Positions 19,493 through 36,894 of a stretch of 50,045 nt of DNA are shown piece by piece. Position numbers and translations under genes: made by a program. A model generated the notes under the pieces. It had not been told where the DNA came from and ran no database searches. It saw only the letters and a list, made by a program, of their open reading frames with translations. The DNA is from Promethearchaeota archaeon (GTDB lineage: Archaea > Asgardarchaeota > Lokiarchaeia > Sigyniarchaeales > SOKP01): positions 4,347-54,391 of the forward strand of contig JBHLLT010000018.1 in NCBI GenBank assembly GCA_048938855.1, written 5' to 3'. Position 1 is the first letter of the stretch, and every line of letters begins with the position of its first letter.

Positions 19493-21550
19493 TTATTTTC
19501 TTAGATAATTATCTATAATTTTAACCCATTGATGATTTTTAATAAAAATCATATCTCTATTTATATCATCATCATTTTGTATATTCAAAATATGTTCTTG
19601 AATATTTCCCATTGAATTTACATCACCTACAGTTAAATATTGAGATATTTGATTTATCAAGTTTGTATTGAATTTCAAATTGTGATTGAAAGCAAGTTCA
19701 TAAATTAAGCAATCAATTAGGTCATAAAAGAAATTTATGATATCTTTATTTTCTTCTCTTATTAACTTACTCTTATTCAACTGTACCATCATATCTGAGA
19801 TTAGATTAAAAATCTCATACTTTTCAGGTAAAATTAGTGGTAATTTATTGATATTGCTTACCGATATTTCTGTAGTTAAATGCGCTCCTAAATTAAAAAC
19901 AAAATCATAATAAAAGTTGATGAGTTTTGAATTCATAAACAAGAGAAGATATTTTATAGTAATTTCTTTTTCTATTCTATCTCTAGGGATTATAACAATA
20001 CATGTACTTAAAGGATAATAATTCTGGTCATCATAAGCTACAGTAAGACTTGAGCTTATTGTTTGCATTATCAGTTTTTCTGGTTTTAAAAATATATTTT
20101 CATCCCTGGCTCTATGTAATATTTTTTGACTATAGTATATGTATAAATTGTTGAAATCTATATAATATCGTCCAATATCCTTACCTCTCAAGGTTTTTTT
20201 ATATTTTTCACTTATTTTATTCTCTTTTAAAAATCTCTCGTCATCACCAGTAGCTATACATGTTTTTGCTTCAAAAAATTTAGATAAATCACAATTTTTA
20301 GTCCTTTTAATAAAATTTATAATTTCAAGTTCCTTATATCCAAGATTTAAGTTGATATTATAATTTTCTTGCTCTAAAAAAATATTTTGGAGTATCTCCT
20401 TCTGTACTAATCCTTCAGGTGTAAAAAATTTTTGATTTGGAAATCTATTTTTTATCAATATTTTATGATTCTCAGGTGGTGGTTCTGGTTTTAATATAAT
20501 AACTATTGTCTCAGCTGTTACAAATTGAAAAATTCCTGCCCCCAAATCAATTATTTCGTCAATGGTTGTGCTTTTTAGCAAAAATTTCCTTAACGAATAA
20601 TAATTGTTCGAACGTATTAGGTTTTTGTGAACGATATTGCTAATTCTTGACGAACAATGGCATAAATCAATTGAACGCTCAATAAACATTCCAAATGTAT
20701 TCATTAAACCTTTAGGAGTTTTATATCTATCTTCGAATATTGCTTTTTCAAGAGGACTTAATTGTCTATTAGAAATATATGGAGGATTTTGAAGTATAAT
20801 ATCGAACCCTCCATTTAACATAATATCTGGAAACTCTAAAAACCAATGAAATGGTTTTAGCTTATTTACCATTTTTTTTTTTTCTGATTCACTTAAATCT
20901 TTCCTTCTTAAATCCTTATGAGTTTGAAACACATTTTTGATTTTGTCATAAAATACATTGGTTATGTTGGTTTGAACTGGTATATTTCTTTCTGGTTTCC
21001 TAACAAATCCGACTAATGCATTACCCAATCTAAAATTAGAATCTATATTTGTTAAATTAATAAAATTATTAAACTCATCACTCAACTCCGTTAGTAGCGA
21101 CAATACCCGTTGTTTAGTAATGTTAATTGCTTCACTTTCAATATCTACTCCATATAAAATATTTGATAAAATGAATTTTCTGATCTGATAATGAGACCAC
21201 TCAATCAATTTCAGTATTTTTAGACGGATAAAATATGATTCTAATACATTTAAGGCGGCAATTAGTAAATCTCCATTTCCTACTGAAGGATCCAAAATAG
21301 AAAGATTCTTTAAAAGGATAAAAATATATTTAAATTGCTCTTTATCTTGCTTAACAAATGAAGATTCGACTAAGAATTGATTTTTCGTATTATCTTGAAT
21401 GTACTTTTCAAATAATTTATCTAAATTTGTGTTTTTTATACCAAACTTACTGGAAAGATTTTCTACTAAAAAGTGGTCAATAGTAGTTTTCGCTATAAAG
21501 TTTGTTATACTTTCTGGTGTATAGACTATTCCCTCTTTTTGTAAACTCAT
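19493..21550 (-). CDS. N6-adenine DNA methyltransferase, gamma class (Eco57I/TaqI-like), with TaqI_C-type target recognition domain
   Basis: 'GIVYTPE', motif I 'ILDPSVGNG', 'LYGVDI', 'FHWFLEFP', motif IV 'FDIILQNPPY' and C-terminal 'LFMNSKLINFYY'. Confidence 0.9.
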   Translation of the reverse strand: MSLQKEGIVYTPESITNFIAKTTIDHFLVENLSSKFGIKNTNLDKLFEKYIQDNTKNQFLVESSFVKQDKEQFKYIFILLKNLSILDPSVGNGDLLIAALNVLESYFIRLKILKLIEWSHYQIRKFILSNILYGVDIESEAINITKQRVLSLLTELSDEFNNFINLTNIDSNFRLGNALVGFVRKPERNIPVQTNITNVFYDKIKNVFQTHKDLRRKDLSESEKKKMVNKLKPFHWFLEFPDIMLNGGFDIILQNPPYISNRQLSPLEKAIFEDRYKTPKGLMNTFGMFIERSIDLCHCSSRISNIVHKNLIRSNNYYSLRKFLLKSTTIDEIIDLGAGIFQFVTAETIVIILKPEPPPENHKILIKNRFPNQKFFTPEGLVQKEILQNIFLEQENYNINLNLGYKELEIINFIKRTKNCDLSKFFEAKTCIATGDDERFLKENKISEKYKKTLRGKDIGRYYIDFNNLYIYYSQKILHRARDENIFLKPEKLIMQTISSSLTVAYDDQNYYPLSTCIVIIPRDRIEKEITIKYLLLFMNSKLINFYYDFVFNLGAHLTTEISVSNINKLPLILPEKYEIFNLISDMMVQLNKSKLIREENKDIINFFYDLIDCLIYELAFNHNLKFNTNLINQISQYLTVGDVNSMGNIQEHILNIQNDDDINRDMIFIKNHQWVKIIDNYLRK

Positions 21551-21980: not shown

Positions 21981-22505
21981 ATGGGTAAATATTTCTTCAA
22001 GATATGTATAGTTGGGGATTTTGGAGTAGGTAAGACTACATTGCTCCATCAATATCTAGAAAGGAGATTTAACCCAAATATAACAACAACTATTGGTTCA
22101 AACTTTTTTGTAAAACGTCTTAAAATTCCGAATGTTGAAGGGTTAATTACTTTACAGATTTGGGATCTTGCAGGACAACCACGTTTTAAATGGGTGAGAC
22201 AGGAATTTTATAAAGGCGCAAAAGGAATAGTTTTTGTATTTGATTTAACTAATCGAGGAACTTTTGAATCTCTTCCAAAATGGAAAAAGGAGATAGAATA
22301 TGTGGTTGATAGATTCTCTAGTGTAATTGTCGGTAATAAGGTTGATTTATTAGATAATGAACATAGGGTATTTGAGAAAGAAGAGTTAATTTATCTCAAG
22401 GAATTTCTTTCTGCATGTCAATATTTTGAAGCTAGTGCAAAATTCGGTAAAAATGTAGAAGAATTTTTTTTAGAATTAGTATCTCACTTGTATAATCATA
22501 GTTAG
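21981..22505 (+). CDS. Rab-like small GTPase
   Basis: G1 GDFGVGKT, G2 TIG, G3 WDLAGQ, G4 NKVD, G5 SAK; RabF-like 'TLQIW' and 'FYKGA'; no C-terminal Cys prenylation motif. Confidence 0.93.
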   Translation: MGKYFFKICIVGDFGVGKTTLLHQYLERRFNPNITTTIGSNFFVKRLKIPNVEGLITLQIWDLAGQPRFKWVRQEFYKGAKGIVFVFDLTNRGTFESLPKWKKEIEYVVDRFSSVIVGNKVDLLDNEHRVFEKEELIYLKEFLSACQYFEASAKFGKNVEEFFLELVSHLYNHS

Positions 22506-22565
22506 GTAAGTGTCATAGATATTATTATGACTAATATTAAACAATCTTTATTTTCATTATTGTTC

Positions 22566-23315
22566 CTATCCTTTTATCATCTTAATAAACATCCAAGCAA
22601 GGTAGAATTCGATCTCTTCATTTTTAAAAGGAGAATTAGATATTAATTCTTTTATTTCTATTGGAGTGTACCCTGCTTGCAGAGAACCAATTGGTTCCTT
22701 AATTTTCTTTAAAGGCTTAGGGACTACTACTTTAGTTGCAAAAGTTAATAATCCATAAAAGAATTTTCTCGAATCTCTACGGAAATCGAAGATCTCTAAA
22801 ACACCATTGTGCTTCAATACTCGATGTGTTTCTTTTAAAACGATAGAAGGATCCTTCCAATGATGAAGTGAAAGGCTACTTATTATAAAATCGACTGAAT
22901 TATCTGGGAAAGGTAAATTATCAGCACTCCCTACTTTAAAGTCAACATTACCAGTTAGTTCATTATCTTGTGTTTTTAATCTAGCTAATTCTAATATTTC
23001 AGATGAAATGTCAACTCCAATTAGTTCAAGATTAGGATATTTTTTTGAAATCAAGACAAGTAGATTCCCCGATCCACAACCCAAATCTACTAATTTTCCC
23101 TCAGGATTATATTTTTTCAGTTCTGATAATATTCTTCTCCTAAGAATTTTAAAAGGAACTAGATTAGTCATTTTTTCAAAGGCTTTAGCTACTTCAGGGT
23201 CATCTAGCCCTTCAATACTAGGTTTTCTGGCATTTTTCTTTCTTGGGAGTCCTAATACTAGAAAAATAATTAAGATAATTCCAATGATTAAAAAAGCAAT
23301 ATAAAAATAAGCCAA
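22566..23315 (-). CDS. Class I SAM-dependent methyltransferase with N-terminal membrane anchor
   Basis: 'VDLGCGSG', 'GVDIS', 'LPFPDNSVD', 'SLHHW', 'RVLKHNG'. Confidence 0.92.
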   Translation of the reverse strand: MAYFYIAFLIIGIILIIFLVLGLPRKKNARKPSIEGLDDPEVAKAFEKMTNLVPFKILRRRILSELKKYNPEGKLVDLGCGSGNLLVLISKKYPNLELIGVDISSEILELARLKTQDNELTGNVDFKVGSADNLPFPDNSVDFIISSLSLHHWKDPSIVLKETHRVLKHNGVLEIFDFRRDSRKFFYGLLTFATKVVVPKPLKKIKEPIGSLQAGYTPIEIKELISNSPFKNEEIEFYLAWMFIKMIKG

Positions 23316-23327
23316 CTATTTACACCA

Positions 23328-23708
23328 TCATGACATTATTTCCATAAACCATTCAAACACAGCTGGAATGTTTTCAATTATGCGATATTTAATACTTTTA
23401 TGTAAAACTACAACGAAGATTTCTGGACGTTCTCTTACTAATAGATAATAATCATTGTCTTGAATCTCTTTCATATTATTCTTGTCTTCAATATCAATAT
23501 GAAAAAGATTATAATCTGCGATATTAGAATCTTCAGTACCCCAAGAATACTCAATTTCTTCTTGAACCAGAGATATTAACTCGTCTAAGGATGGCTCCAT
23601 TGAGATCCATCCCTCGAGATAAGACTCCTCATCTCTATGCAAAACGAAGAAATTAGCAATTTTTTCTGGAGTTTCATTATTCATCATAATTTTTTCAAAA
23701 TCTGGCAC
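23328..23708 (-). CDS. Hypothetical acidic protein
   Basis: 126-aa ORF 12 nt upstream of the methyltransferase gene. Confidence 0.65.
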   Translation of the reverse strand: MPDFEKIMMNNETPEKIANFFVLHRDEESYLEGWISMEPSLDELISLVQEEIEYSWGTEDSNIADYNLFHIDIEDKNNMKEIQDNDYYLLVRERPEIFVVVLHKSIKYRIIENIPAVFEWFMEIMS

Positions 23709-23979: not shown

Positions 23980-25533
23980 TTAGTGCTTGGAGATATCTCG
24001 AAAGATTCCTTGGATTATAGATTCTCCTCCTATCAAGGTTACGGAAGCTGTGATGTGAACGGGTATTATTTTTCCTGATTTTGTTATTACTGACGCATCC
24101 TCATTAAGTGCTCCGCTCTGTTCTATATGTATCTTAAACATCTTTGCATATTGTTCTGACACATCTGGAGGGTGAAGAGTAGTTTGATGTGATCCAATAA
24201 TCTCTTCTTTTTTCTTCTCCAAAAGGATTTCTGCTTTTTTATTGCAGTTAATAATCAAGCCCGTCTTAACATCTGCCCAAATTATTGCATCTGCTGCATT
24301 TTCAAAGGCTAATCTAAATTTTTCTTCTGATTCTCTTAATTTTTGTTCGGCTTCTTTCTTTTCAGAGATATCTAAAAGAGTTGCTAAAAATGCATTTTTT
24401 CCTTTATATTGAATGGTTCTGGAATAACTCTCAACCCATTTAATTTCTCCCGATTTAGTAAAAACTCTATAAGGATGAACTATCGAATCTGCTAATTCTG
24501 CATCTACTTTCCTTCTTACTCTTTCCATTGCTATTGCTCGATCTTCTGGATGAACAGCTTTAAAAAATTCAAGTGCAGGCCAATTCGTCATTTCTTCAAT
24601 AGAATAGCCATAAATAATTGATATTGCTTTATTCACATATTTGAGAAGATTATCTTGAATAATTACAACTCCTAAAAATGATTGTTCTGTTATGGTTCTA
24701 AATTTTTCCTCACTCTCTTTTAAAGCTTCTTCTATGCTTTTATGTTGAGTAACATCAGAAAAAACACCATCTGCGTATAATACACCTTCCTTCTCATAGA
24801 CTATTTCTGATCTATCATGTATCCAAATCCATGTTCCATCTTTTCTTTTAATTCTGTACTCTACATCAAATGGACTCCTTTGTTTGAAAAAAGCTTTATA
24901 GGCTTCCATTATATTCTCAACACTGTCGGGATCTATCCTTCCAAACCAAATATCTTCCCCTTCCCTACTATAAATTTCTTCAGGACTATACCCATAGATT
25001 TTTTCTACATTGGGACTGATAAACGCAGTATTACCATCTTGATCTTTTGTCCAAGCCACATCTGGGATGTTTTCAATCAATTCTTTATATTTAAACTCAG
25101 TTTCTTTTAATTTCAACTCTGTAAGCTTGAAAAGTGAAATATCCGAAGTAAGGCCATCAGCATAAAATACTCCAGCTCTCTCATAGACATTGGTAGATAC
25201 ATCCCTTAACCAGATTATATCTCCATCTTTTCTTTTATACTGATACTCAATATTAAATGGTAAATTTTTATGAAACAGCTTATCATAAGCTTGTCTTACA
25301 TTTTCAACATCATTAGGATGTATTCTCTCATACCAAATCTGTTCACTATCTCCTTTATAAAACTCTGCTTGACTATAACCAAAGATTTTTTCAACATTGG
25401 GACTTATGAATGTGATATTCCCTTCAAAATCTTTAGTCCAGATAACATCTGGTATCGTATGAATTAAAAATTCATATTTTTTTTTTAATTCATTTAGTTC
25501 TTCTTCATTCTTAGTGAAATTAGGATTGTCCAT
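23980..25533 (-). CDS. PAS-only sensor protein (4 PAS/PAC domains, no output domain)
   Basis: Four PAS S-box units (IPDVIW..FISP; IPDVAW..FISP; SFLGVV..YVN; AADAII..CN), each ending in D[IV][ST]. The stop codon follows the last PAC. Confidence 0.9.
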   Translation of the reverse strand: MDNPNFTKNEEELNELKKKYEFLIHTIPDVIWTKDFEGNITFISPNVEKIFGYSQAEFYKGDSEQIWYERIHPNDVENVRQAYDKLFHKNLPFNIEYQYKRKDGDIIWLRDVSTNVYERAGVFYADGLTSDISLFKLTELKLKETEFKYKELIENIPDVAWTKDQDGNTAFISPNVEKIYGYSPEEIYSREGEDIWFGRIDPDSVENIMEAYKAFFKQRSPFDVEYRIKRKDGTWIWIHDRSEIVYEKEGVLYADGVFSDVTQHKSIEEALKESEEKFRTITEQSFLGVVIIQDNLLKYVNKAISIIYGYSIEEMTNWPALEFFKAVHPEDRAIAMERVRRKVDAELADSIVHPYRVFTKSGEIKWVESYSRTIQYKGKNAFLATLLDISEKKEAEQKLRESEEKFRLAFENAADAIIWADVKTGLIINCNKKAEILLEKKKEEIIGSHQTTLHPPDVSEQYAKMFKIHIEQSGALNEDASVITKSGKIIPVHITASVTLIGGESIIQGIFRDISKH

Positions 25534-25629
25534 TACAATTTTTTCTCTTTTTGCACTTTTCTATAAGTAAGATCATATATTTAACTTTATTTATTTTATA
25601 GTATTATTTTTCTTGATTAACCCCCATAA

Positions 25630-26520
25630 CTAAGTAACCCAACCAATTCCAGCAAGCAGTCCTTTTTCATTTAAAACGTTATACTTAGATATTCCCACTT
25701 GAGTGAAATCTTCTTTAAAATCTTCATCAAAAAAAATTCTTTCTTTTATAGATTCGCCATAAGACTTTAATAAATTATCAGCAAAAAAATTTTGAGTTAC
25801 TGGTAAATTACCCATTGCACTTAAAAGTATTACACCCCCCTTTTTTGTAACTCTAACACTTTCTTTTAAAATATCTATACGCGATAAATTAAACAAATCG
25901 GGATTATGGCAATACCCAGAAATTACCACTGCATCAAAAAAATTATTAGGTTCACGAATAATTCCATTTATAACATCAGAAATCTTTATATCATCATATC
26001 CCAATTTACTAAAATCTTCCTGTCTTTCCTTTTTGATTAAAACAAATACATCTTTACTATTTTTAATTGCTAATTCAAGATTTGGCACATTAAAGAAATC
26101 TTCTAACATTATTACTAGGGCAGAATCAACGCTGGGACGTCCAACTATTTTTTTAACGATTTCAAACGTCTCTTTTACAAATTGACCTTCATCTATAAAT
26201 GCATTTCTTAAAAAATGATGAAATATATAATTAATAGCAGAAGCTCCTAATCTAGTTGATTCTACCATTATTCTTTTACTCGATCCTTCTTGTATATATG
26301 AAACATATCCCCTACGTTCAAGATTATTTAAACTATTATAAAAACTTGAAGTTGAGAGTGTTTTTGTCTCTTTTAAAAATTGATTTACTTCGATAAATAA
26401 TACATATCTTATCACTGGTCTGGAATATCGAAGAAGAATCTGAAGGGTAATCATTTCAACTATTGAGATATCAGGAAATTCTTCCAATCTATCTTGAGAT
26501 TTGCTCTCTTCACTCTGCAT
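25630..26520 (-). CDS. Winged-helix (PadR-like) regulator fused to a degenerate methyltransferase-like domain
   Basis: 'STSSFYNSLNNLERRGYV' recognition helix and wing; C-terminal 'REPNNFFDAV...LKESVRVTKKGGVI' with no GxGxG. Confidence 0.7.
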   Translation of the reverse strand: MQSEESKSQDRLEEFPDISIVEMITLQILLRYSRPVIRYVLFIEVNQFLKETKTLSTSSFYNSLNNLERRGYVSYIQEGSSKRIMVESTRLGASAINYIFHHFLRNAFIDEGQFVKETFEIVKKIVGRPSVDSALVIMLEDFFNVPNLELAIKNSKDVFVLIKKERQEDFSKLGYDDIKISDVINGIIREPNNFFDAVVISGYCHNPDLFNLSRIDILKESVRVTKKGGVILLSAMGNLPVTQNFFADNLLKSYGESIKERIFFDEDFKEDFTQVGISKYNVLNEKGLLAGIGWVT

Positions 26521-26558
26521 TCTTATTCACTTCTTTACTTTCTTTTCAAGAATTTTTT

Positions 26559-27572
26559 TTATGAAACCCAACCAATTCCTATTAAGTCTCCTTCGAACTT
26601 GAAAACCTTCATATTAGAAATACCCACATCTTTAAAATGTTGTTCAAGCTCTTCTATTTCATAGATCGTTTGAGCATTTGCTTTTTCATAAATATCTATT
26701 AATTTATTAAGGAGAAATCCTTCGGTTCTTGGCAATTTTGCTTGAGCTGTTATTATAATAACCCCATCTTTCTTGGTAACCCTCACTGCTTCTTTAAGGC
26801 AATCAGTAAGATTTAGCCCAAATAGTTCTGAATCTCTATAATAAAAAGGAAAAAATGTCAAATCAAATATTTTATTTGGTTCTCGTATCTTTTTATTATA
26901 AATACTTGAAAAATTTATTCCCTTAAAACCAGTATTTTCTAATTCTTTAGAAAAATCTTCTTTTGATAAAATGAACATGGATCTTGAAACATTTTTGGCT
27001 ATACGAAGAATATTAATATCAATATATTCATTTAGCCAAATAACAAATAAACTTTCAAATTGTATCCTCCCAATTTGTTCAAGTATCGCTTTTTTCATAG
27101 CTTCCATAGTAATTTCTTCCGCTCGCACGCCAAAGCGTATAAAATGTCGAAGAATAACTTCTATTAAAGGACGTGTAAGTGAAGTGATCTCAATAGATTC
27201 AATTTTTCCTTTTTCGTTAAGATTTGAAGTGATAAGACCTCGTTCTTCAAGATTTTTTAAATTGTTATAAAAACTAGAAGTAGAAAATTTCCTAGATTTT
27301 TGTACAAATTGGAAATATCTCTTTTCGTTCGGATCGAGCTTTTTTTTATCAATTGAATCAAGTGAAGTTTGTTCACTATCTAAGAATTGAGCAACTTCTA
27401 AAAATAAGGTATGCCTGATAACCGCTTCAGAATGTCGTAATAATAATTCTAAAGTTAGTATTTCGACAAGAGAAAGATCAATAAAATCCGCAATTGAATA
27501 TGTCAGAATAGAAGAATTATTTTTCATCGATTTTTTAACATTCTCCATAATAAATAATAGCAATTTCATCAA
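26559..27572 (-). CDS. Winged-helix regulator fused to a degenerate methyltransferase-like domain (paralogue of 25630..26520)
   Basis: 'STSSFYNNLKNLEERGLI', 'REPNKIFD', 'LKEAVRVTKKDGVI', ending in IGIGWVS. The true start may be a downstream Met. Confidence 0.7.
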   Translation of the reverse strand: MMKLLLFIMENVKKSMKNNSSILTYSIADFIDLSLVEILTLELLLRHSEAVIRHTLFLEVAQFLDSEQTSLDSIDKKKLDPNEKRYFQFVQKSRKFSTSSFYNNLKNLEERGLITSNLNEKGKIESIEITSLTRPLIEVILRHFIRFGVRAEEITMEAMKKAILEQIGRIQFESLFVIWLNEYIDINILRIAKNVSRSMFILSKEDFSKELENTGFKGINFSSIYNKKIREPNKIFDLTFFPFYYRDSELFGLNLTDCLKEAVRVTKKDGVIIITAQAKLPRTEGFLLNKLIDIYEKANAQTIYEIEELEQHFKDVGISNMKVFKFEGDLIGIGWVS

Positions 27573-27841
27573 TTTAAAATTTTCACTTTTGAAAAAAAAA
27601 AATATTATTTTTTGAAAAAAATACTATAGAAAAATAGAAAAAATTGCTTTAGAAAAGTGGAAAACCCCTTAAAACCATAGTTCAAATTTCATAATCATGC
27701 TTTCCAAATCTGAAAAAACCAAAGATTTAAATATGAAATTTAATACTTAGAAAATTGAAGAAAAAAAATTATAAAAAATAAAAAAAAAACTTTTTAAAAT
27801 TTTAAAATTAAAAATTCAAAAATAAAAAAAAGGTTTAGACA
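27573..27841. promoter_or_regulatory. Divergent promoter region shared by the wHTH/PAS arm and the GTPase-7TM-TFB arm
   Basis: 269-nt extremely A-rich non-coding gap between divergent starts, with several TATA-like boxes (TTTAAATA, TTATAAAA). Confidence 0.55.
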
Positions 27842-28750
27842 GTGATAAAAAGCATTTTAAAACGAGTTTTTTCATCTGATAGAAAAGTAGTTATATGTGG
27901 TCTTGACAGCGCTGGAAAAACTACAATGGTAACTTTTCTTCAAACAGGGACATTTTTTGAAAATATCCCAACTATGGGAAAACAAGAAACTATAATGAAG
28001 GTTCAGGGGATAAGGCTAAATTTAATGGATATGGGAGGTCAAAAAGATTTCCGTCCTTTATGGTTAGGTGAAATGGATAATGCTGAATGTGTCATTTTTA
28101 TGCTTGATGCAAGTGCTCAAGAAAGATTTAAGGAAGCTAAAATAGAATTGTGGAAATTAGCATCGATCATGAAAAAAAAGCCACTTATAGTCTTAGCGAA
28201 TAAATATGATCTTCCTAATGTTGCATCTATTAGTGATATAATAGAAACACTTGAATTAGCTAAATTAGCATCATTTGAGGTTTTGCCAATATCCTGTAAA
28301 ACGGGATTTGGAATTGTGGATGCATTCTCTAAAATGTACTATAAAATAACGGGTAAACTTCTAAGCAAACGATTATCACCAAAAGCTTTAACGATATTTG
28401 ATAAAGGAGGGGTTCCTCTGACTACCAAAGCAGGCGAACATCAGGATCAAGATATTTTACGAGGGGGGTTATATTCTGCAATTACTAGCTTTGCTAAGGA
28501 ATCTTTTAATTCCGAATTAAATCTGTTAAAACTTGAAGGGCTCCTCATAATATTCAAAAGAACTAAACATTTAATGGGGTCAATTATTATTGAGGATACA
28601 GAAAATATTGATACTCGTGAAGCAGAGTTAAGATTATCAGAATTACTTGAGCATCTTGAAAATATGTGCCCTGAGCTTGATAGAGACCAGTTAGACCGAG
28701 AAAAAATAGATTTTCTTACTAAACAATTTGCTACCAACATACTAAATTAA
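27842..28750 (+). CDS. Arf-family small GTPase fused to a C-terminal longin/roadblock-like domain
   Basis: G1 GLDSAGKT, G2 PTMG, G3 DMGGQ, 'FRPLW', G4 NKYD, G5 SCK; amphipathic N-terminus MIKSILKRVFS; C-domain 'LTIFDKGGVPL...GGLYSAITSFAKESF'. Confidence 0.9.
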   Translation: MIKSILKRVFSSDRKVVICGLDSAGKTTMVTFLQTGTFFENIPTMGKQETIMKVQGIRLNLMDMGGQKDFRPLWLGEMDNAECVIFMLDASAQERFKEAKIELWKLASIMKKKPLIVLANKYDLPNVASISDIIETLELAKLASFEVLPISCKTGFGIVDAFSKMYYKITGKLLSKRLSPKALTIFDKGGVPLTTKAGEHQDQDILRGGLYSAITSFAKESFNSELNLLKLEGLLIIFKRTKHLMGSIIIEDTENIDTREAELRLSELLEHLENMCPELDRDQLDREKIDFLTKQFATNILN

Positions 28751-28810
28751 TTTTTTTATTTTTTTTATTTTTTAAATAGAAGAGGGAAATAATAAGAGAA
28801 GGGAAAAAAA

Positions 28811-29311
28811 ATGGAATCGACAAAAATTATAATATCCGAACTAAAGGGAACGATTAATTCTAATCCCGAAATTTTATACTCATTTCCTCCACTTGATATA
28901 GCTGATTTAGAATCTAAAAATCTAATAACAAAATTTTTACCATTTGGCTCCAAATCAGGGGAATTTATTTCCTCTGCATTTGGTAAGAAAAAATCAATTC
29001 TATCCTACATTTTTTCAATTAAAAATTCAAGCAATCGAGATAATTTAGTTTCGATCTCAATAATTATAGCCAAAAAAGATAATCCAGATATATATAAACC
29101 AGCTCTGAAGGAAATTATTGATCAACTCGACAATAATAAAGTACTAACAGAAGAAATATTAAAAACTTATTTAGAAGTTATTTTCAAGGGCATAAATAAA
29201 GAAGAAGAAATCTATATTGAGAATATTTTGATTAATCTTCCTGAAATTTTTAATGAAATTAAATCTAAAATAATTAAAACAAAACCACAAATAAGGGGGA
29301 GTTTTTTCTAA
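28811..29311 (+). CDS. Hypothetical protein with a uDENN/longin-like signature
   Basis: 'PEILYSFPP....ITKFLPFG' resembles the uDENN pattern P-x-(I/V)-x-x-x-(F/Y)P...F-x-(F)-P-x-G; recognised by eye only. Confidence 0.55.
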   Translation: MESTKIIISELKGTINSNPEILYSFPPLDIADLESKNLITKFLPFGSKSGEFISSAFGKKKSILSYIFSIKNSSNRDNLVSISIIIAKKDNPDIYKPALKEIIDQLDNNKVLTEEILKTYLEVIFKGINKEEEIYIENILINLPEIFNEIKSKIIKTKPQIRGSFF

Positions 29312-29955
29312 TGGTGGATGCGCTAGTTTCTATTTTGGATAAAATAATTAACTGTGTGAATATATTTTTATTACCCATTATCACTCTACTACTTGTCATT
29401 AAGATAAAAAATGAGAAAAGCGAGACGGGAAAATATAATATAATTCGCTCTCTTATATGTGGATGTTATGCCTGTTTTAGTTGGCTTGTAATTTGGGAAT
29501 TTATAGATGAAAATATACCTATAGGACAAACACTCCATGAATTGATTGGAAATCAATCTCACACTTTTGGTTTGTTTAATTTCGGATATGGAATAATGGT
29601 TTGCCTAGGTCTTATGATGATTGTCTATGCTAATCAAAAAGAAACCCTATATTATACTCCCATTTTTATTTTTAGTGGGATGGTTATATTTTATTTATTA
29701 ACCGGTTTTCAAGAATGGTTAATGATATACATTTATACGGGTTCAGTGCTTGGTCTACTTTTTTTATATATTACAGGATTTCGGCTTAAAGATAATGGTT
29801 CATTGGGTATAGCAATTATGTTTTCTTTGGCATTTAGTACTATATTCTTACAAAATACGTTATTAGCATCTATTATAAGTTTTGGATATATAATATTCGC
29901 AATCGTTTTTGCACTTGGATATTTTGAACCATTTAAAGAACAGGAGGTAAATTAA
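29311..29955 (+). CDS. 7TM membrane protein 1
   Basis: Seven hydrophobic segments counted by eye; start overlaps the previous stop (TAATG). Confidence 0.75.
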   Translation: MVDALVSILDKIINCVNIFLLPIITLLLVIKIKNEKSETGKYNIIRSLICGCYACFSWLVIWEFIDENIPIGQTLHELIGNQSHTFGLFNFGYGIMVCLGLMMIVYANQKETLYYTPIFIFSGMVIFYLLTGFQEWLMIYIYTGSVLGLLFLYITGFRLKDNGSLGIAIMFSLAFSTIFLQNTLLASIISFGYIIFAIVFALGYFEPFKEQEVN

Positions 29956-29956
29956 A

Positions 29957-30619
29957 ATGATCGAAACTCTAATTTGTGAATTAGCATTTCTGATAATAAG
30001 TTTTTTATGTTTAATCTATTCGATAAAAACTTATAGAGAAAGGAAGAATAAAATTGATATCGTTATATTTTTATTCATATCTGCTATAATTTCCCAGTCT
30101 ATTATTCGCTTAGCTCTAATGATTAATTTACCCTTGTTTTTTACTATCGGAGCGTTATTTAATATAACTAATATTGGAATGCTAGTATATGTATGTATTG
30201 AACTAGAGTTTTTACTCTACTTGAAGAATGCGAAAAAATTCTATTCTCTCCCATTAGTAATTAGCTTCTATATAGCAAGCGGTTTAATTTTGTATAATAA
30301 TGGTATCGCATTGTATTTTTTTGCTCTATTCTCGGGGATCTTAACTTTTTATTTACTTGCTCGGGAAGGAGCGAAAAATCAAAATGGAATTGCCTTAAGC
30401 ATTGCAATATTTATAATTATTAATGGGAGTATTCAAACAATAGACATATTTATATTCAATTTTAGTATTATTGGGCCAATTTTAAGAATAATTTCTATTA
30501 CTATCATGCTCTTAGGCGCATCAGGATTTATTGATAAACATATCTTGATTGATAAAGAAAAAGAGCAAAATATCACCAATATTTGGATTTCAAAAATTGT
30601 TACTAAAACAAATAAATAA
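29957..30619 (+). CDS. 7TM membrane protein 2 (distant paralogue of 29311..29955)
   Basis: Seven hydrophobic segments; GGAGGT SD-like site upstream; shares motifs with 7TM-1. Confidence 0.75.
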   Translation: MIETLICELAFLIISFLCLIYSIKTYRERKNKIDIVIFLFISAIISQSIIRLALMINLPLFFTIGALFNITNIGMLVYVCIELEFLLYLKNAKKFYSLPLVISFYIASGLILYNNGIALYFFALFSGILTFYLLAREGAKNQNGIALSIAIFIIINGSIQTIDIFIFNFSIIGPILRIISITIMLLGASGFIDKHILIDKEKEQNITNIWISKIVTKTNK

Positions 30620-30636
30620 TAAAAGATGCTGATAAA

Positions 30637-31089
30637 ATGTCAACAACTATCAACAAGATCTTTAACGGGATTACTAATAACTCTTGGATTAAACGAAAAC
30701 CTCCTAAAAATCTTACAATCTTAAGTAATGGAGGAGTTATTTTGACTAGGAAAGGTGAGCAATACCATTGTGATTCAACTTTTGAAGGGGCTTTTTTAGC
30801 AGCAATTACGATGTTTACTGAAACATTTTTTCAAAAACAATTGATTCAAGTAAGATTAAACAGAAATTCCATCATCATCAAGCGCTCAGATCATTTTATT
30901 ATATATATTATTGCTGAGAATAATAAACATCCTAAAGAGTTAGAAATGGAAGAAGTCTTAGATGATCTTTTAAATTATCTTGAAGTTAATTATCGAATTT
31001 TAGAGGATTGCCCAGGATATATCAACCCCCATAAAGTACAATACCTTCTAAAGCAATTTGCTAATATAAATCATAAAATAAAGAAATAA
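30637..31089 (+). CDS. Stand-alone longin/roadblock-like protein, homologous to the GTPase C-terminal domain
   Basis: PKNLTILSNGGVILT..GAFLAAITMFTETFF..IIIKRSDH aligns with PKALTIFDKGGVPLT..GGLYSAITSFAKESF..IIFKRTKH. Confidence 0.75.
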   Translation: MSTTINKIFNGITNNSWIKRKPPKNLTILSNGGVILTRKGEQYHCDSTFEGAFLAAITMFTETFFQKQLIQVRLNRNSIIIKRSDHFIIYIIAENNKHPKELEMEEVLDDLLNYLEVNYRILEDCPGYINPHKVQYLLKQFANINHKIKK

Positions 31090-31096
31090 GAAAAAA

Positions 31097-31306
31097 ATGT
31101 TTAAAATAGAGACTGAAAAATGGGTTGAATGTTTAATGATCTCAAAAGAAAAACTAATGCGATGGAAAATTGAAGCAGCTCATATCTTTAATGAATGCCG
31201 CCCAGTTGATTTTGACACAATTAGGTTATGGAAATTAATTTCTGACATCTTAATTGAATTGGATGGATCTGTTCTTAAACCAAAATTAGATGAAAAAGTG
31301 AAATAA
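31097..31306 (+). CDS. Small hypothetical protein
   Basis: 69-aa ORF tightly packed in the cluster (7-nt and 13-nt gaps). Confidence 0.6.
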   Translation: MFKIETEKWVECLMISKEKLMRWKIEAAHIFNECRPVDFDTIRLWKLISDILIELDGSVLKPKLDEKVK

Positions 31307-31319
31307 GAGTTGATGTTAC

Positions 31320-31598
31320 TTGGAGGATTATACTGAAATTTTACATTTTTTTAATTTAGGTAATCGAACCAGGCAAGAAACGAAAATTTGGTGCTATAAA
31401 AAGATATTAAATTTGATGTATAAATATATTGAAAATCCAAATAGAATAGAAATTAAAAATAGCTTAATCCTAATCTTGAACCTATTCTTTATCGATACTC
31501 CTGACCATTTTCATTCTCAAGGAAGGGATTATATCACCTTAACTGAGAATGAAAAAAGTCAGGTATTAAAAATATTATCAAAAGAGCTAAGAGGGTGA
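31320..31598 (+). CDS. Small helical protein, TFB-adjacent family copy 1
   Basis: 'NSLILILNLF...PDHFHSQG'; paralogous to 32884..33180. Confidence 0.65.
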   Translation: MEDYTEILHFFNLGNRTRQETKIWCYKKILNLMYKYIENPNRIEIKNSLILILNLFFIDTPDHFHSQGRDYITLTENEKSQVLKILSKELRG

Positions 31599-31603
31599 GA
31601 TAA

Positions 31604-32482
31604 ATGGTATTAGTAGAGAATAAATTTGAAATAGATTATGTATGTCCCGAATGTAATGGTAATTTAATCTTAGTTGAAGAGAAAGGAGAAACCGTATGTT
31701 GTCAGTGTGGACTAATTATCTATGAGAGAGAATTAGATCTCTCACGAAGCGGAAAGAGAGTATATAATGCACAAAAATCAGAAAATCCTCAGATAAGATC
31801 TCCTATCTCTCCGCTTATACCAGATATTGGATTATACACCTTTATAGGTAAAAAAAATATTAATAATTCAGATTTAAAGCGAGCTTCTAAAAGGGATTCT
31901 CATTTAACTTGGAAGAGCCGTAATTTTTTAATTGCTACTATAGAAATTAAAAGAATTGGTCATGTTTTAAATCTCCCCATTTATGTGAAAGAAGCAATAT
32001 TAAAACTATATAAAAAAACCTATAGAAGAGATTTACTAAGAGGCCGATCAATCAATGGGATGGTTGCAGCTTGTATATATTATATCTGTAAGCATAAAAA
32101 AATCCCAAGAACTTTCTCAGAAGTTATTGCCGAAAGTTCTGCAAAAAAAGAAGATATTATGAATTGCTTTAAAATTTTAATTAAGGAATTTAACTTAAAA
32201 ATACCAGTTACAGACCCAATATCGCTTATTTCTAAATATTGCGCTAATCTATCATTTACATCTGAAACAGAAATGCTAGCAATTAAAATTCTAAAGACTT
32301 ATTATGAAAAATATTCGCTTGGTGGAGTAGATCCGAAAGGTTTATGCGCGGGGTCTTTATATTTAGCATCAAAATTGAAAAACCAAAGAATAAATCAAAA
32401 AAAAATAGCTGATGTTGTTGGTACCACAGTAGTAACCTTGCGTTCAAGATATAGAGATCTCCTAAAAAGTCTAGAGATATAA
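31604..32482 (+). CDS. tfb: Transcription initiation factor IIB (TFB) paralogue
   Basis: Zn ribbon CPEC...CCQCG; cyclin repeats 'LLRGRSINGMVAACIY..C..KKIPRT' and 'GVDPKGLCAGSLY'; HTH 'QKKIADVVGTTVVTLRSRY'. Confidence 0.93.
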   Translation: MVLVENKFEIDYVCPECNGNLILVEEKGETVCCQCGLIIYERELDLSRSGKRVYNAQKSENPQIRSPISPLIPDIGLYTFIGKKNINNSDLKRASKRDSHLTWKSRNFLIATIEIKRIGHVLNLPIYVKEAILKLYKKTYRRDLLRGRSINGMVAACIYYICKHKKIPRTFSEVIAESSAKKEDIMNCFKILIKEFNLKIPVTDPISLISKYCANLSFTSETEMLAIKILKTYYEKYSLGGVDPKGLCAGSLYLASKLKNQRINQKKIADVVGTTVVTLRSRYRDLLKSLEI

Positions 32483-32505
32483 AAAAAAGATGAAGGTGTC
32501 AATAT

Positions 32506-32868
32506 TTGGTAAGAATCTTTATTGTTGATGATGAGGAAGATATTCGTACCCTCTTTGAAAGGTTTTTAATTTTGAGAGGTTTTGATGTTTTAACTCCCGC
32601 ATGTAATGGAAAAGAAGCGATTGATATGTTTATTCAATTTAATCCTAAACCTGATATAATTTTAATGGATCATCATATGCCCTTAAAAACCGGGATTGAA
32701 GCAGCTAAGGAAATTAAACAACTTAACGGGAATGTAAAAATAATTTTTATTAGTGGGGATACCCAAATAAAAGAAAAAGCGCTTGCTACAGGGGCTATTG
32801 ACTTTATAATAAAACCATTTAAGGTGAATGATATAATAGAATCAATTACTAATGCATTAGCCTCATAG
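32506..32868 (+). CDS. Single-domain response regulator receiver (CheY-like)
   Basis: 'IVDDE', phospho-Asp in 'ILMDHHMP', 'FISG', 'IIKPF'; GAAGGTG SD-like site before the TTG start. Confidence 0.92.
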   Translation: MVRIFIVDDEEDIRTLFERFLILRGFDVLTPACNGKEAIDMFIQFNPKPDIILMDHHMPLKTGIEAAKEIKQLNGNVKIIFISGDTQIKEKALATGAIDFIIKPFKVNDIIESITNALAS

Positions 32869-32883
32869 AATAAAAAACTTAAA

Positions 32884-33180
32884 ATGAAAGGAAAATATGT
32901 TATGGATATTTATGATGAAATTTTAAAGCTTTTTGACGAACAAGAATTAAAAAGTGAAATTAATCTTATCTCTATTCTAATAATATTAATCAGAATTTCA
33001 AGATATAATTTTAAGATAATCTCAAAAGGTAATTATCTTAATTATTTAATTTTGATTCTTAATTTATTAATGGTAAATATCCCAGATTACTGTCATAGTA
33101 AAGGAAAGGCAATCAAGATGCTAAATCTCCCAGAATATAAAATATTCATGGAAGAATTGAGGAGAGAATTTCTACACTAA
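32884..33180 (+). CDS. Small helical protein, TFB-adjacent family copy 2
   Basis: 'NYLILILNLL...PDYCHSKG'. Confidence 0.65.
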   Translation: MKGKYVMDIYDEILKLFDEQELKSEINLISILIILIRISRYNFKIISKGNYLNYLILILNLLMVNIPDYCHSKGKAIKMLNLPEYKIFMEELRREFLH

Positions 33181-34611: not shown

Positions 34612-36894
34612 ATGAATCCTTTTCCAAATTTGAAAAAAACATTAATTTTTATTATTCTCTTCAGTTTTTTTAGTATAGCGTTATCTATTGATATTAGTTA
34701 TGCATCAGAAGAGGATATGCCGCTATATTTTGATTTTAAATATCAAATGTTTCAAACCTCTATAAAACAAGGAACTTTTCAAAATGCTAGTTCATTTGAC
34801 ATTGAATTACCTTCCTCAGACTGGAACATTAAAGATGTTGAGATAAATTTTACTAATATAAAATTTGATACTGAAACTATTGTAATTGAAGATAATCCTA
34901 TTGATTCAAACCTTATTTCAAAAGCTAAGCACGGTTGGGGAGTACAAATTAGGATCTTAGATCCAACAATAATATATGGAGTTCAGATTTATGGCAATAA
35001 TTATTCAACTCAGTCAGCTTTAGTCTATGTTCAGATTAATGGATACAATAACCAAACTAATGCTCCAGATAATGATTTCTATGGATCACCAATACTTCTT
35101 AACATGTCATATTCTGCTACACCTGCATGGCATACTCAAACATTTTCATCACCAATTAATTTAGAACCTGGAAATTACTATTTAGTTCTCAACGGAACGG
35201 AAATAGGACTTAGACCTCAACCTAAATATTATTGGTATTATAATAATGTTAATCCAACTTATCCTGAATTATACAAATCTAGTTACGACTCTAGCTCATG
35301 GTCAGATGGTACGCAAGGAGCTCCTGTTTTATATAAACTAATTCAAAAAATTAACGCTCCTGTTTATCCAGAAGAAATAAATATGACGGCAAATATTAAT
35401 GGAAATACACTTAGCGTTTCAAATGGAAAATCTCAAAATACAGGGTATCTTAGTAAAATAGATTTTAATTATAAACCAAATACTACCAATCTAAACATCA
35501 AAATTAGTAATAATAAAACCTCAACACTGACATTTAATGGTACATATAATTTTGAAATAAATAATATTTTTATGATCCCCAGTCAATTAACCGTGGGGAT
35601 TAATCAAACAAATAAATGGATTCTGACCCCTCAAATAACTAGATTTTCAAATGATGATACTATAAGATTTGAATACCCAAATAGTTGGTATAACTTAACA
35701 ATATCTCGAAACTTAGGGTTATTATGGGAAAATATCAATTCAGAAGTTATAATTAATACAATTAATAAATTTATAATAATACCTAATGAAACAATTCAAG
35801 ATGATGTTCTATGGAAAATAGAAGCAAATTCTCCTAATATTGAATTTGAGCTCAATTATACTCCAAACCCTCTTAAAGTAGATCAAAAATTACTTATCTC
35901 TATTAAATCACCTCTTTTAGAAGGTAATTATACATTCAGATTATATGATGCTCAAGAACAAGTATATACAATTACAAAACAACTACCTTTACAAGAAAAT
36001 ACCTTCAATTACAACATAACTCAAGAACCAGTTGGAGGTATTTATTATGCTTATGTAGTATGGAGTAACAAAACAGATGCAGGGGTTCAGATGGCTAAAT
36101 TTGAAATAATTAGTGGTGATGGTCCAATCCCAATTCCCTGGCTACCTATAATTATTATTATTGGATCAGTTTCAATTGGAGGCTTAGCTATTGGAGAAAC
36201 TACTTATAAATTAATTAAAAGATTGGAATCTAAGAAAAGAGAAAATATTAAGCTTATTCTTGAGAAATGTACTGAAATTACGAGTTTAAAGCATATAATC
36301 GTGCTCCATAGTAAATCAGGGATTGATGTTTATTCTGAATCATATGAAGAAGAGGAACTCGATCCTACTTTAATATCCGGATTTCTTCAGGCGATCCATA
36401 ATTTTGGTACAGAGGTTTTAGAAAAATCTAAAGAAACGCGAACTGTTAAAGTTGAATATAAAAAATCTATAATTTTAATGACAGAATTTGTTAATTTAAA
36501 ATTAATAATTATTATGGGAAAAAATCCTTCCAAAAACTTCCTATATTCTGTTGAATCACTTGCTTATTATATATACAAATACTATGGTAATTTACTTGAT
36601 AACTTTGATGGTGGTCTTAAAAAATTTCTAGGAATAAGTAAATTAATTGAAAAAATCCTCAATGTTTCATTTATTGCACCCCTAAAAATATCAATGAATA
36701 AAAATATTAAATTGACCGCAAATGAAAAGGATATGATAAATAAAGCATCTAAGTTTATGCGAGAACATGATTTTGACCATTTCTATTCTCTGTATCTCCT
36801 CCCTGATAATGCTTGTAGTCCAAAAGATTATGATATTATTCTTAAATTGATTAAGAAAGGGATATTCAGTCCAATAGAAAAAACTCCTGATTAG
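34612..36894 (+). CDS. Single-pass membrane glycoprotein with cytoplasmic longin/roadblock-like domain (paralogue C)
   Basis: Collinear with A and B; 'HSKSGIDVY...LISGFLQAIHNFGTE'. Confidence 0.75.
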   Translation: MNPFPNLKKTLIFIILFSFFSIALSIDISYASEEDMPLYFDFKYQMFQTSIKQGTFQNASSFDIELPSSDWNIKDVEINFTNIKFDTETIVIEDNPIDSNLISKAKHGWGVQIRILDPTIIYGVQIYGNNYSTQSALVYVQINGYNNQTNAPDNDFYGSPILLNMSYSATPAWHTQTFSSPINLEPGNYYLVLNGTEIGLRPQPKYYWYYNNVNPTYPELYKSSYDSSSWSDGTQGAPVLYKLIQKINAPVYPEEINMTANINGNTLSVSNGKSQNTGYLSKIDFNYKPNTTNLNIKISNNKTSTLTFNGTYNFEINNIFMIPSQLTVGINQTNKWILTPQITRFSNDDTIRFEYPNSWYNLTISRNLGLLWENINSEVIINTINKFIIIPNETIQDDVLWKIEANSPNIEFELNYTPNPLKVDQKLLISIKSPLLEGNYTFRLYDAQEQVYTITKQLPLQENTFNYNITQEPVGGIYYAYVVWSNKTDAGVQMAKFEIISGDGPIPIPWLPIIIIIGSVSIGGLAIGETTYKLIKRLESKKRENIKLILEKCTEITSLKHIIVLHSKSGIDVYSESYEEEELDPTLISGFLQAIHNFGTEVLEKSKETRTVKVEYKKSIILMTEFVNLKLIIIMGKNPSKNFLYSVESLAYYIYKYYGNLLDNFDGGLKKFLGISKLIEKILNVSFIAPLKISMNKNIKLTANEKDMINKASKFMREHDFDHFYSLYLLPDNACSPKDYDIILKLIKKGIFSPIEKTPD

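What the first reader, a model, noticed from the sequence alone, without database searches (positions are those of the whole stretch)
23980..33180. Divergent signalling island joining PAS sensing, wHTH regulators, GTPase/7TM signalling and TFB
Seen: 13 consecutive genes on two arms from one 269-nt gap. All recognisable ones are sensory, switch or transcription proteins, with no metabolic enzyme or histidine kinase. Four components come as paralogous pairs (wHTH-MTase-like, 7TM, longin-like, small helical). Inference: one self-contained regulatory circuit built from heterodimers, perhaps controlling a developmental or stress programme.
Basis: partly seen in the sequence, partly recalled or inferred. 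Interest (0 to 1): 0.8.

Follow-up and report, generated by a model that had tools for sequence, protein, structure and literature searches.

The report
Asgard Arf-switch signalling gene island
A Lokiarchaeal (Asgard) genome carries a signalling island whose conserved core pairs an Arf-type GTP switch with a probable NPRL2-like switch-off protein and two receptor-shaped membrane proteins, which names testable native partners for archaeal Arf proteins, whose regulators are still unknown.

Summary
The 13 genes, two arms and four paralogue pairs are real. The locus is layered, not one fixed circuit.

Core: an Arf-related GTPase-longin fusion, an NPRL2-like longin and two paralogous 7TM proteins. 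They stay together in 36 of 40 loci examined across the order, including cultured Ca. Lokiarchaeum ossiferum. The longin folds like NPRL2 (Z 13.6) and keeps an arginine in 37 of 39 homologues. It is modelled on the GTPase's P-loop and switch regions (0.74 vs best control 0.00), so it is probably the GTPase's GAP. The 7TM fold is GPCR-like, but homology and coupling are not shown.

Extended island: both arms are divergently joined in one other genus, and the longin-helical-TFB tail, whole or in part, recurs in three more loci. Most cassettes lack these extras. The gap holds a conserved palindrome, probably the wHTH operator, next to a TATA box.

'Self-contained' and 'built from heterodimers' are not supported. 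The scan found the core earlier on other DNA; the extended island and operator are new here. I found no paper describing either.

The parts
23980..25533 (-). PAS-only sensor (four PAS domains, no output domain)
   Evidence: Pfam PAS_3, four stretches; 42% identical PAS-only orthologue beside wHTH2 in G110
25630..26520 (-). wHTH2: PadR-like winged helix plus degenerate methyltransferase-like domain; island-associated copy
   Evidence: Atlas features PadR/Methyltransf_11 0.93 for its paralogue wHTH1; clade with the gap-proximal G110 copy, support 99
26559..27572 (-). wHTH1: same family, resident copy (likely start 27548)
   Evidence: 59-71% identical orthologues, most of those with upstream DNA divergent from REC or MCP-REC; separate clade
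27580..27595 (.). Palindromic site 1 (TTTYCA-N4-TGRAAA), probable autoregulatory operator
   Evidence: Conserved about 47 nt upstream of wHTH1 orthologues
27701..27716 (.). Palindromic site 2, 9 nt upstream of the right-facing TATA box
27726..27733 (+). TATA-like box TTTAAATA for the right arm
   Evidence: Core invariant in six aligned gaps; function inferred from archaeal promoter anatomy
27842..28750 (+). Arf-related (ArfR) GTPase with N-terminal amphipathic-like helix and C-terminal longin domain; cassette gene 1
   Evidence: Pfam Arf E 3e-33; best solved relatives 8oun/8oum; P-loop, T44 and Q67 invariant in 37 sequences
28811..29311 (+). NPRL2-like longin with conserved Arg76 (codon 29036-29038), probable GAP; cassette gene 2
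   Evidence: Fold: NPRL2 Z 13.6, rmsd 3.2, 144 aligned; Foldseek E 7e-7; Arg in 37/39; complex model
29311..29955 (+). 7TM protein A with GPCR-like topology; cassette gene 3
   Evidence: AF2 pLDDT 89, seven long helices; top 50 fold matches all GPCR folds, best Z 14.7
29957..30619 (+). 7TM protein B, paralogue of A; cassette gene 4
   Evidence: Profile match 97.4%; not folded separately
30637..31089 (+). Stand-alone longin homologous to the GTPase's C-terminal domain; marks the extended island
   Evidence: also after the 7TM pair in G110, G081, L189, L210
31097..31306 (+). 69-aa protein of unknown family
   Evidence: 63% identical orthologue in the same position in L189; not found in 153 other genomes of the order
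31320..31598 (+). Small helical protein 1 (Lokiarchaeal family, no Pfam)
   Evidence: 68% to L189 copy
31604..32482 (+). Accessory TFB paralogue
   Evidence: Pfam TFIIB; clade with island TFBs of L189 and G081, support 98, apart from the more conserved TFB clades
32506..32868 (+). Single-domain receiver with intact acid pocket, phospho-Asp and Lys; resident gene
   Evidence: Pfam E 8e-24; 65% to the REC of the cassette-free G008 locus
32884..33180 (+). Small helical protein 2; resident gene, fused to REC in relatives
   Evidence: 69% to G008 copy; REC-helical fusion in L163/L016

Best explanation
The locus is a conserved four-gene GTPase switch placed under a wHTH-controlled divergent promoter, together with accessory signalling genes. 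Shown by comparison: the four core genes travel together, and the extended layout recurs in a small subgroup. Inferred (about 65%): the NPRL2-like longin is the GAP of the Arf-related GTPase, binding switch I/II and supplying Arg76 to work with Gln67. Inferred (about 40%): the two 7TM proteins form a membrane sensor whose conserved cytoplasmic loops recruit or gate the GTPase or its GAP. Inferred (about 65%): the wHTH protein(s) bind the two palindromes in the gap, repress their own arm and regulate the right arm. Inferred (about 30%): PAS, the accessory TFB, REC and the helical proteins are wired to the switch as input and output rather than merely co-regulated.
For: All four core genes in 36 of 40 loci, in permuted orders and as block duplications, across three families of the order. 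NPRL2 is the best fold match of the longin. Arg76 is kept in 37/39 homologues and lost only in the two aligned copies that lack the cassette. Complex model 0.74, best control 0.00; mark reached by 58 of 80 solved and 2 of 110 mismatched pairs; runs agree in at least 97% of contacts; partner pLDDT at least 85; interface is P-loop 21-23, switch I 40-48 and switch II 67-69 against longin 11-19, 43-49 and 76-79. Interface columns are more conserved than the rest, 0.72 vs 0.57. In both 7TM proteins the K/R-rich (cytoplasmic) loops are the conserved ones, 0.55-0.76 vs 0.20-0.57. The palindrome lies upstream of 11 of 48 wHTH genes outside the loci used to define it, against 4 of 2391 background genes. 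Both arms are joined in G110. The GTPase-first subtype is a supported clade, 99/96.
Against: No biochemical or expression data. The complex pass may reflect likeness to solved GATOR1-Rag or C9orf72-SMCR8-ARF1 complexes, and close cousins also pass. The model does not use a second longin, which eukaryotic longin GAPs need (PMC8213707). The Lokiarchaeal longin has NP where GAP longins have the GP motif (PMC12290439). The 7TM model also resembles HisKA_7TM (TM 0.55) and HlyIII (0.60) domains. The extended island rests on five partial loci, with only one besides this window showing both arms. Nine of the 11 held-out palindrome hits belong to one clade.
Confidence: 0.6

Rival explanations
1. The longin is an effector or GEF/adaptor of the GTPase, like SR-beta with SRX or Arf with adaptin longins. 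The 7TM pair is cargo or a transporter, so the cassette serves membrane trafficking rather than receptor signalling.
For: Effectors also bind switch I/II, the interface seen. AP, DENN and Mon1-Ccz1 longins score Z 7-9. The GP motif is altered. 7TM bundles occur in non-GPCR roles.
Against: NPRL2/Npr2 stand above other eukaryotic longins, Z 13.6 and 12.8 vs 9.3 or less. The arginine tracks the cassette and is kept in three Heimdall longin-ArfR loci.
Confidence: 0.2
2. One reading: all 13 genes form one self-contained circuit of heterodimers controlling a developmental or stress programme.
For: Tight co-directional packing. Both arms are joined in G110. The longin-helical-TFB-REC tail recurs. The shared gap has operator-like sites.
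Against: Most cassettes lack the extras. wHTH1, REC and helical-2 are resident genes that occur without the cassette. wHTH paralogues are mostly single-copy and in different clades. There is no kinase for REC in the island.
Confidence: 0.12
3. The extras are a chance accretion at an insertion hotspot. The cassette merely landed behind the wHTH1 promoter and has no functional tie to PAS, wHTH or TFB.
For: The same gap drives REC alone or MCP-REC in relatives. Gene order differs between G000 and G110.
Against: The GTPase subtype, wHTH2, the PAS protein and the TFB each group with their island counterparts from other genera. G110's own gap carries the palindrome.
Confidence: 0.08

Closest known systems
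Eukaryotic longin-domain GAP complexes: GATOR1 NPRL2-NPRL3 (yeast Npr2 R84) on RagA/Gtr1; C9orf72-SMCR8 (R147) on ARF1; FLCN-FNIP
   Same: NPRL2-type longin fold with a conserved arginine in the loop before the last strand; modelled on switch I/II of a small GTPase; an Arf target, as for SMCR8 (PMC8213707, PMC12999518).
   Different: A 166-aa stand-alone protein without DENN domain; NP instead of GP; residue after the Arg is mostly Asp (Asn in 5 of 39); no proven second longin; encoded in an operon with its GTPase.
Asgard ArfR/AArf GTPases (bioRxiv 10.1101/2024.02.28.582541; PMC11914678)
   Same: Arf-type G motifs and N-terminal helix; best solved relatives are 8oun/8oum.
   Different: C-terminal longin fusion and a conserved operon. 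PMC11914678 states that native regulators remain to be established, and PMC10933270 that GTPases are hard to match to GAPs from genome layout.
Asgard Roadblock-Rab-DENN operon and NPRL2-like longins (Liu et al., bioRxiv 10.1101/2020.10.19.343400); GP-motif Asgard longins (PMC12290439)
   Same: Conserved GTPase-plus-regulator operon; NPRL2-like longins with an arginine finger are known in Asgard genomes.
   Different: Different GTPase class, no DENN or roadblock gene, two 7TM genes; those papers name no partner GTPase.
LYCHOS/GPR155 binding GATOR1, and PQLC2 recruiting C9orf72-SMCR8-WDR41
   Same: A membrane protein with a 7TM domain controls a longin GAP rather than acting as a GEF (PMC11525196 abstract, PMC12290439); GPR155 appears among weak fold matches.
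   Different: No transporter domain, no WDR41; homology not shown.
Actinobacterial conservon (CvnA-D)
   Same: Prokaryotic operon joining a membrane sensor, a small GTPase and its regulator (PMC13343842 abstract).
   Different: The conservon uses a histidine-kinase-like sensor, a roadblock protein and a Ras-like GTPase.
wHTH-methyltransferase fusion regulators (PadR + Methyltransf_11 cluster of Bathyarchaeia; ArsR-methyltransferase fusions such as SahR, from my own knowledge)
   Same: Winged helix plus class I methyltransferase-like domain; palindromic site upstream of its own gene.
   Different: The glycine-rich SAM motif is not visible in the alignment; ligand unknown.

Membership tests
NPRL2-type longin GAP | NPRL2-like longin fold | tested here: met
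   Z 13.6, rmsd 3.2, 144 aligned to 8fw5_B; Foldseek E 7e-7
NPRL2-type longin GAP | Conserved arginine finger facing the nucleotide site | tested here: inconclusive
   Arg76 in 37/39, in the loop before the last strand and in the modelled interface; residue-level superposition on NPRL2 and contact with the phosphate were not returned
NPRL2-type longin GAP | GP motif before strand 2 | tested here: not met
   N in 35/39 and P in 33/39 at these positions
NPRL2-type longin GAP | Obligate longin-longin heterodimer | tested here: inconclusive
   The GTPase's own longin is not in the confident interface; the stand-alone longin was not modelled
NPRL2-type longin GAP | Measured GAP activity | not testable with these tools
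   needs biochemistry
Asgard ArfR GTPase | Arf-type G1-G5 motifs with catalytic Gln | tested here: met
Asgard ArfR GTPase | Placement in the published ArfR clade | not tested
   no reference set used; only best-hit evidence
GPCR | Seven-helix bundle with GPCR topology | tested here: met
   (protein A); protein B by profile homology
GPCR | Demonstrable homology to a GPCR class | tested here: inconclusive
   Z 14.7 is near the level helical bundles reach by arrangement alone; identity 5-15%; HisKA_7TM and HlyIII score similarly
GPCR | Coupling to a heterotrimeric G protein as a GEF | tested here: not met
   the linked GTPase is a small Arf-like protein with no G-alpha helical domain, and no beta/gamma genes are in the cassette
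Actinobacterial conservon | Histidine-kinase-like sensor plus roadblock plus Ras-like GTPase | tested here: not met
Rag GTPase | Rag-type G domain | tested here: not met
   Arf E 3e-33 vs Gtr1_RagA E 4e-5; only the two-domain layout is Rag-like
SAM-sensing wHTH-methyltransferase regulator | Intact SAM-binding motif I | tested here: inconclusive
   no conserved glycine-rich loop in 24 sequences; not folded

The most novel reading that the evidence does not exclude
Lokiarchaea have a receptor-to-transcription pathway built from eukaryote-type parts. A GPCR-fold 7TM heterodimer gates an NPRL2-like GAP acting on an Arf-family GTPase, and in this subgroup the switch is wired to a wHTH/PAS-controlled promoter and an accessory TFB. 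This would be a prokaryotic forerunner of 7TM control of longin GAPs (LYCHOS-GATOR1, PQLC2-CSW).
Probability: 0.2. Interest if true: 0.92.

Novelty: new variant of a known kind. Interest (0 to 1): 0.72.

Why it matters
Three recent papers leave open which proteins regulate Asgard Arf GTPases and which GTPases the Asgard GAP-like longins act on (PMC11914678, PMC12290439, PMC10933270). This cassette supplies a matched GTPase-longin pair of small soluble proteins with a predicted catalytic residue, and it is present in a cultured organism (Ca. Lokiarchaeum ossiferum), so the question can be tested directly. If the 7TM pair is coupled, membrane control of longin GAPs predates eukaryotes. The extended island adds a candidate operator, regulator and accessory TFB, a rare handle on how such a switch is controlled in Asgard archaea.

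Tried and rejected
My scripts read the REC gene on the wrong strand; this was corrected, and REC statements use onward. My first reading, that the arms are unlinked everywhere, fell with the G110 overlap.

Searches that gave nothing: the search for related loci with wHTH1 alone. Pfam and PDB sequence searches for the NPRL2-like longin, 7TM protein A and the helical family. Foldseek for 7TM protein A at E 0.001 or better (best 0.012, GABA-B). The TM1 profile was not found outside the order in 400 phylum genomes searched, although longin-ArfR-membrane triplets exist in Heimdall loci.

No RNA holder was listed. Laid contigs from three studies cover both arms, but none bridges the poly-A part of the gap; this neither confirms nor questions the assembly.

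The palindrome is not enriched genome-wide (12 found, about 16 expected) or, with one mismatch, in the window, so it is evidence only by its position. Repeat search of the gap gave only A/T-rich chance repeats. wHTH genes lying 18-43 kb from the cassette in G124, G127 and G129 belong to another clade and are not divergent neighbours. The longin tree cannot resolve the origin of the stand-alone longin.
Full report
Setting. The window lies in a 3.95-Mb genome whose named relatives are Promethearchaeota (Lokiarchaeia); a same-order genome is Ca. Lokiarchaeum ossiferum B35. Near-identical DNA occurs in sediment and mangrove metagenomes.

Observation. All 13 ORFs are present: PAS, wHTH2 and wHTH1 on the minus strand, and ten tightly packed genes on the plus strand, with 269 nt between the arms. 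There is no kinase or metabolic enzyme inside. The four paralogue pairs hold: wHTH 34%, 7TM profile probability 97.4%, GTPase C-terminal longin vs the 30637 protein E 7.5e-33, and the two helical proteins in one family. The 28811 protein is a different longin.

Layer 1, the core. The 28811 protein is found in 51 of 154 genomes of the order and the 7TM-A profile in 48 genomes, all in this order. Of 40 loci fetched around the 28811 homologue, 36 hold all four genes; one further locus is cut by a contig end. The order is permuted between lineages and the block is duplicated as a unit in several genomes, which is how a functional module behaves. Ca. L. ossiferum has it in the same order as the window.

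The GTPase is Arf-type. Its best solved relatives are 8oun/8oum, which from my own knowledge are the Asgard ArfR structures, and it keeps the P-loop, T44 and Q67.

The 166-aa protein folds as a longin (pLDDT 89.5). Its best matches are NPRL2 and Npr2 (Z 13.6 and 12.8; Foldseek E 7e-7). Arg76 lies in the loop before the last strand. It is kept in 37 of 39 homologues and lost only in the two aligned copies that have no cassette. It is also present in three Heimdall loci where a homologue abuts an ArfR gene and a membrane-protein gene. In the modelled complex with GTP and Mg the score is 0.74 against a best control of 0.00; the mark was reached by 58 of 80 solved and 2 of 110 mismatched pairs, the runs agree in at least 97% of contacts, and the partner's pLDDT is at least 85. 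The longin sits on the P-loop, switch I and switch II, with residues 76-79 in the interface. This is the geometry reported for SMCR8-ARF1 and Npr2-Gtr1 (PMC8213707, PMC12999518), so the pass may come from likeness to those structures. The GP motif is NP here, and no second longin takes part in the model. GAP activity is therefore an inference, about 65%.

The 7TM proteins. Protein A gives a confident seven-helix model. Its 50 best matches among 48,161 chains are all GPCR folds (best Z 14.7, rmsd 3.8, 191 aligned). However, Foldseek finds nothing significant, and HisKA_7TM and HlyIII domains score similarly. The topology is GPCR-like; homology is not shown, and Asgard 7TM/GPCR-like clusters have already been reported (bioRxiv 10.64898/2026.10.28.762692). 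In both paralogues the K/R-rich loops and the C-terminus, i.e. the cytoplasmic face, are the conserved parts. That suggests a conserved cytoplasmic partner. That the partner is the GTPase or its GAP is inference from linkage, about 40%.

Layer 2, the extended island. The window's GTPase groups with those of G029, G110 and L210 (99/96), all with the GTPase first. In G110, from another genus, one contig ends with wHTH-PAS-wHTH on the minus strand and another starts with GTPase-longin-7TM-7TM-longin. They share an exact 55-bp overlap found nowhere else in that genome, so both arms are divergently joined there too. G110's gap-proximal wHTH is the sister of wHTH2, and its PAS-only protein is 42% identical. 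G081, a third genus, has longin-7TM-7TM-longin-helical-helical-REC-TFB. L189 has 7TM-longin-69aa-helical-TFB-REC, which also shows the 69-aa gene is real. L210 has the cassette plus longin and a helical gene. The island TFBs form their own clade, with one further G029 TFB that precedes PAS genes. But this rests on five partial loci, and most cassettes have none of the extras.

Layer 3, the resident divergon. wHTH1 orthologues of 59-71% identity are divergent from REC alone, MCP-REC or a REC-helical fusion. In G008 the flanks (Rab, 126-aa gene, REC, helical-2, ornithine cyclodeaminase) match the window, but the cassette, TFB, PAS and wHTH2 are missing from that locus. The window is therefore a mosaic of the island and this divergon.

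The gap. It aligns with five cassette-free wHTH1 gaps and keeps two copies of the palindrome TTTYCA-N4-TGRAAA and a TATA-like box. The palindrome occurs exactly upstream of 18 of 55 wHTH-family genes: 11 of 48 outside the loci used to define it, in about three lineages including G110's gap. Only 4 of 2391 background genes have it. The only close pair in the genome is in this gap. Site 1 lies just upstream of wHTH1, which fits autorepression. Site 2 ends 9 nt before the right-facing TATA box, a position typical of archaeal activators (my knowledge). The wHTH proteins resemble PadR-methyltransferase fusions without a visible SAM motif.

How it most likely works. wHTH, perhaps tuned by the PAS-only protein, sets expression of the right arm. 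The 7TM pair senses an external or membrane cue. The GTPase cycles at the membrane and is switched off by the NPRL2-like longin, possibly helped by the stand-alone or fused longin. The accessory TFB, REC and helical proteins are co-expressed candidates for output. REC needs a kinase in trans; 18 HisKA hits pass the cut-off elsewhere in the genome. Gene linkage, folds and motifs are shown; every interaction is inferred.

Known and new. The parts belong to known families, and a different Asgard GTPase operon is published (10.1101/2020.10.19.343400). In eight literature searches I found no description of this cassette. PMC11914678, PMC12290439 and PMC10933270 state that the partners are unknown. 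The library lacks most subscription papers. This scan reported the core earlier on other genomes, and a later check of a related three-gene unit priced direct 7TM-GTPase coupling at 23 in 100; I set my odds with that in view. The extended island and the operator did not appear in the earlier notes returned to me.

Verdict. The feature is real and is a new variant of the longin-GAP/small-GTPase kind. Interest 0.72.

Noticed in passing
window 34621-34636: Third exact copy of the palindrome, at +9 of the 760-aa gene (34612-36894), which looks membrane-anchored with a C-terminal longin-like domain; a possible further target of the wHTH regulator or chance.
   Followed up: partly
L020, L021, L168, L170-L173: A separate clade of the wHTH-methyltransferase family sits divergently from a PFL-like glycyl radical enzyme and its activase, with the same palindrome in the gap: a likely regulator of that operon.
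   Followed up: partly
L163:9237-9929 and L016:8898-9488: Receiver domain fused to the small helical domain, suggesting that this Pfam-less Lokiarchaeal family (54 of 154 genomes) is a receiver output domain.
   Followed up: partly
L010:8059-9219, L018:8518-9672: A membrane protein with an MCP signalling domain followed by REC occupies the place of the cassette behind the wHTH1 gap.
   Followed up: partly
L091:11617-12300, L092:7825-8481: Homologues of the NPRL2-like longin with a Cys-rich N-terminal extension, no arginine and no cassette: possible non-catalytic derivatives.
   Followed up: partly
L072, L086, L094, L060/L061, L078/L079: Tandem, inverted or nearby duplications of the four-gene cassette (partial in L094).
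   Followed up: partly
L166:10033-10686, L167:9200-9847: Divergent 7TM-A homologues (26-28%) without the other cassette genes in G096 and G097.
   Followed up: no
L256, L273, L283: Heimdall-type three-gene units: NPRL2-like longin with the arginine, plain ArfR, one membrane protein.
   Followed up: partly
L063:4155-6771: In G029 the GTPase-first cassette is divergent from a REC-containing gene and lies next to a PAS histidine kinase instead of wHTH genes.
   Followed up: partly
window 27842-27850: The window GTPase lacks the Gly2 that most orthologues have (MIK vs MG).
   Followed up: no
window 31604-32482: The accessory TFB has a degenerate B-reader region compared with canonical TFBs (read from the sequence); the genome holds at least 11 TFB paralogues.
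   Followed up: partly
window 21981-23708: Rab-like GTPase and a 126-aa gene flank the island and are syntenic with G008; a class I methyltransferase lies between them only here.
   Followed up: partly
window 19493-21550: Eco57I/TaqI-like restriction-modification methylase.
   Followed up: no
L069 (G131) and L071 (G079): 7TM-A is split or carries internal stops in two genomes; decay or assembly error.
   Followed up: no
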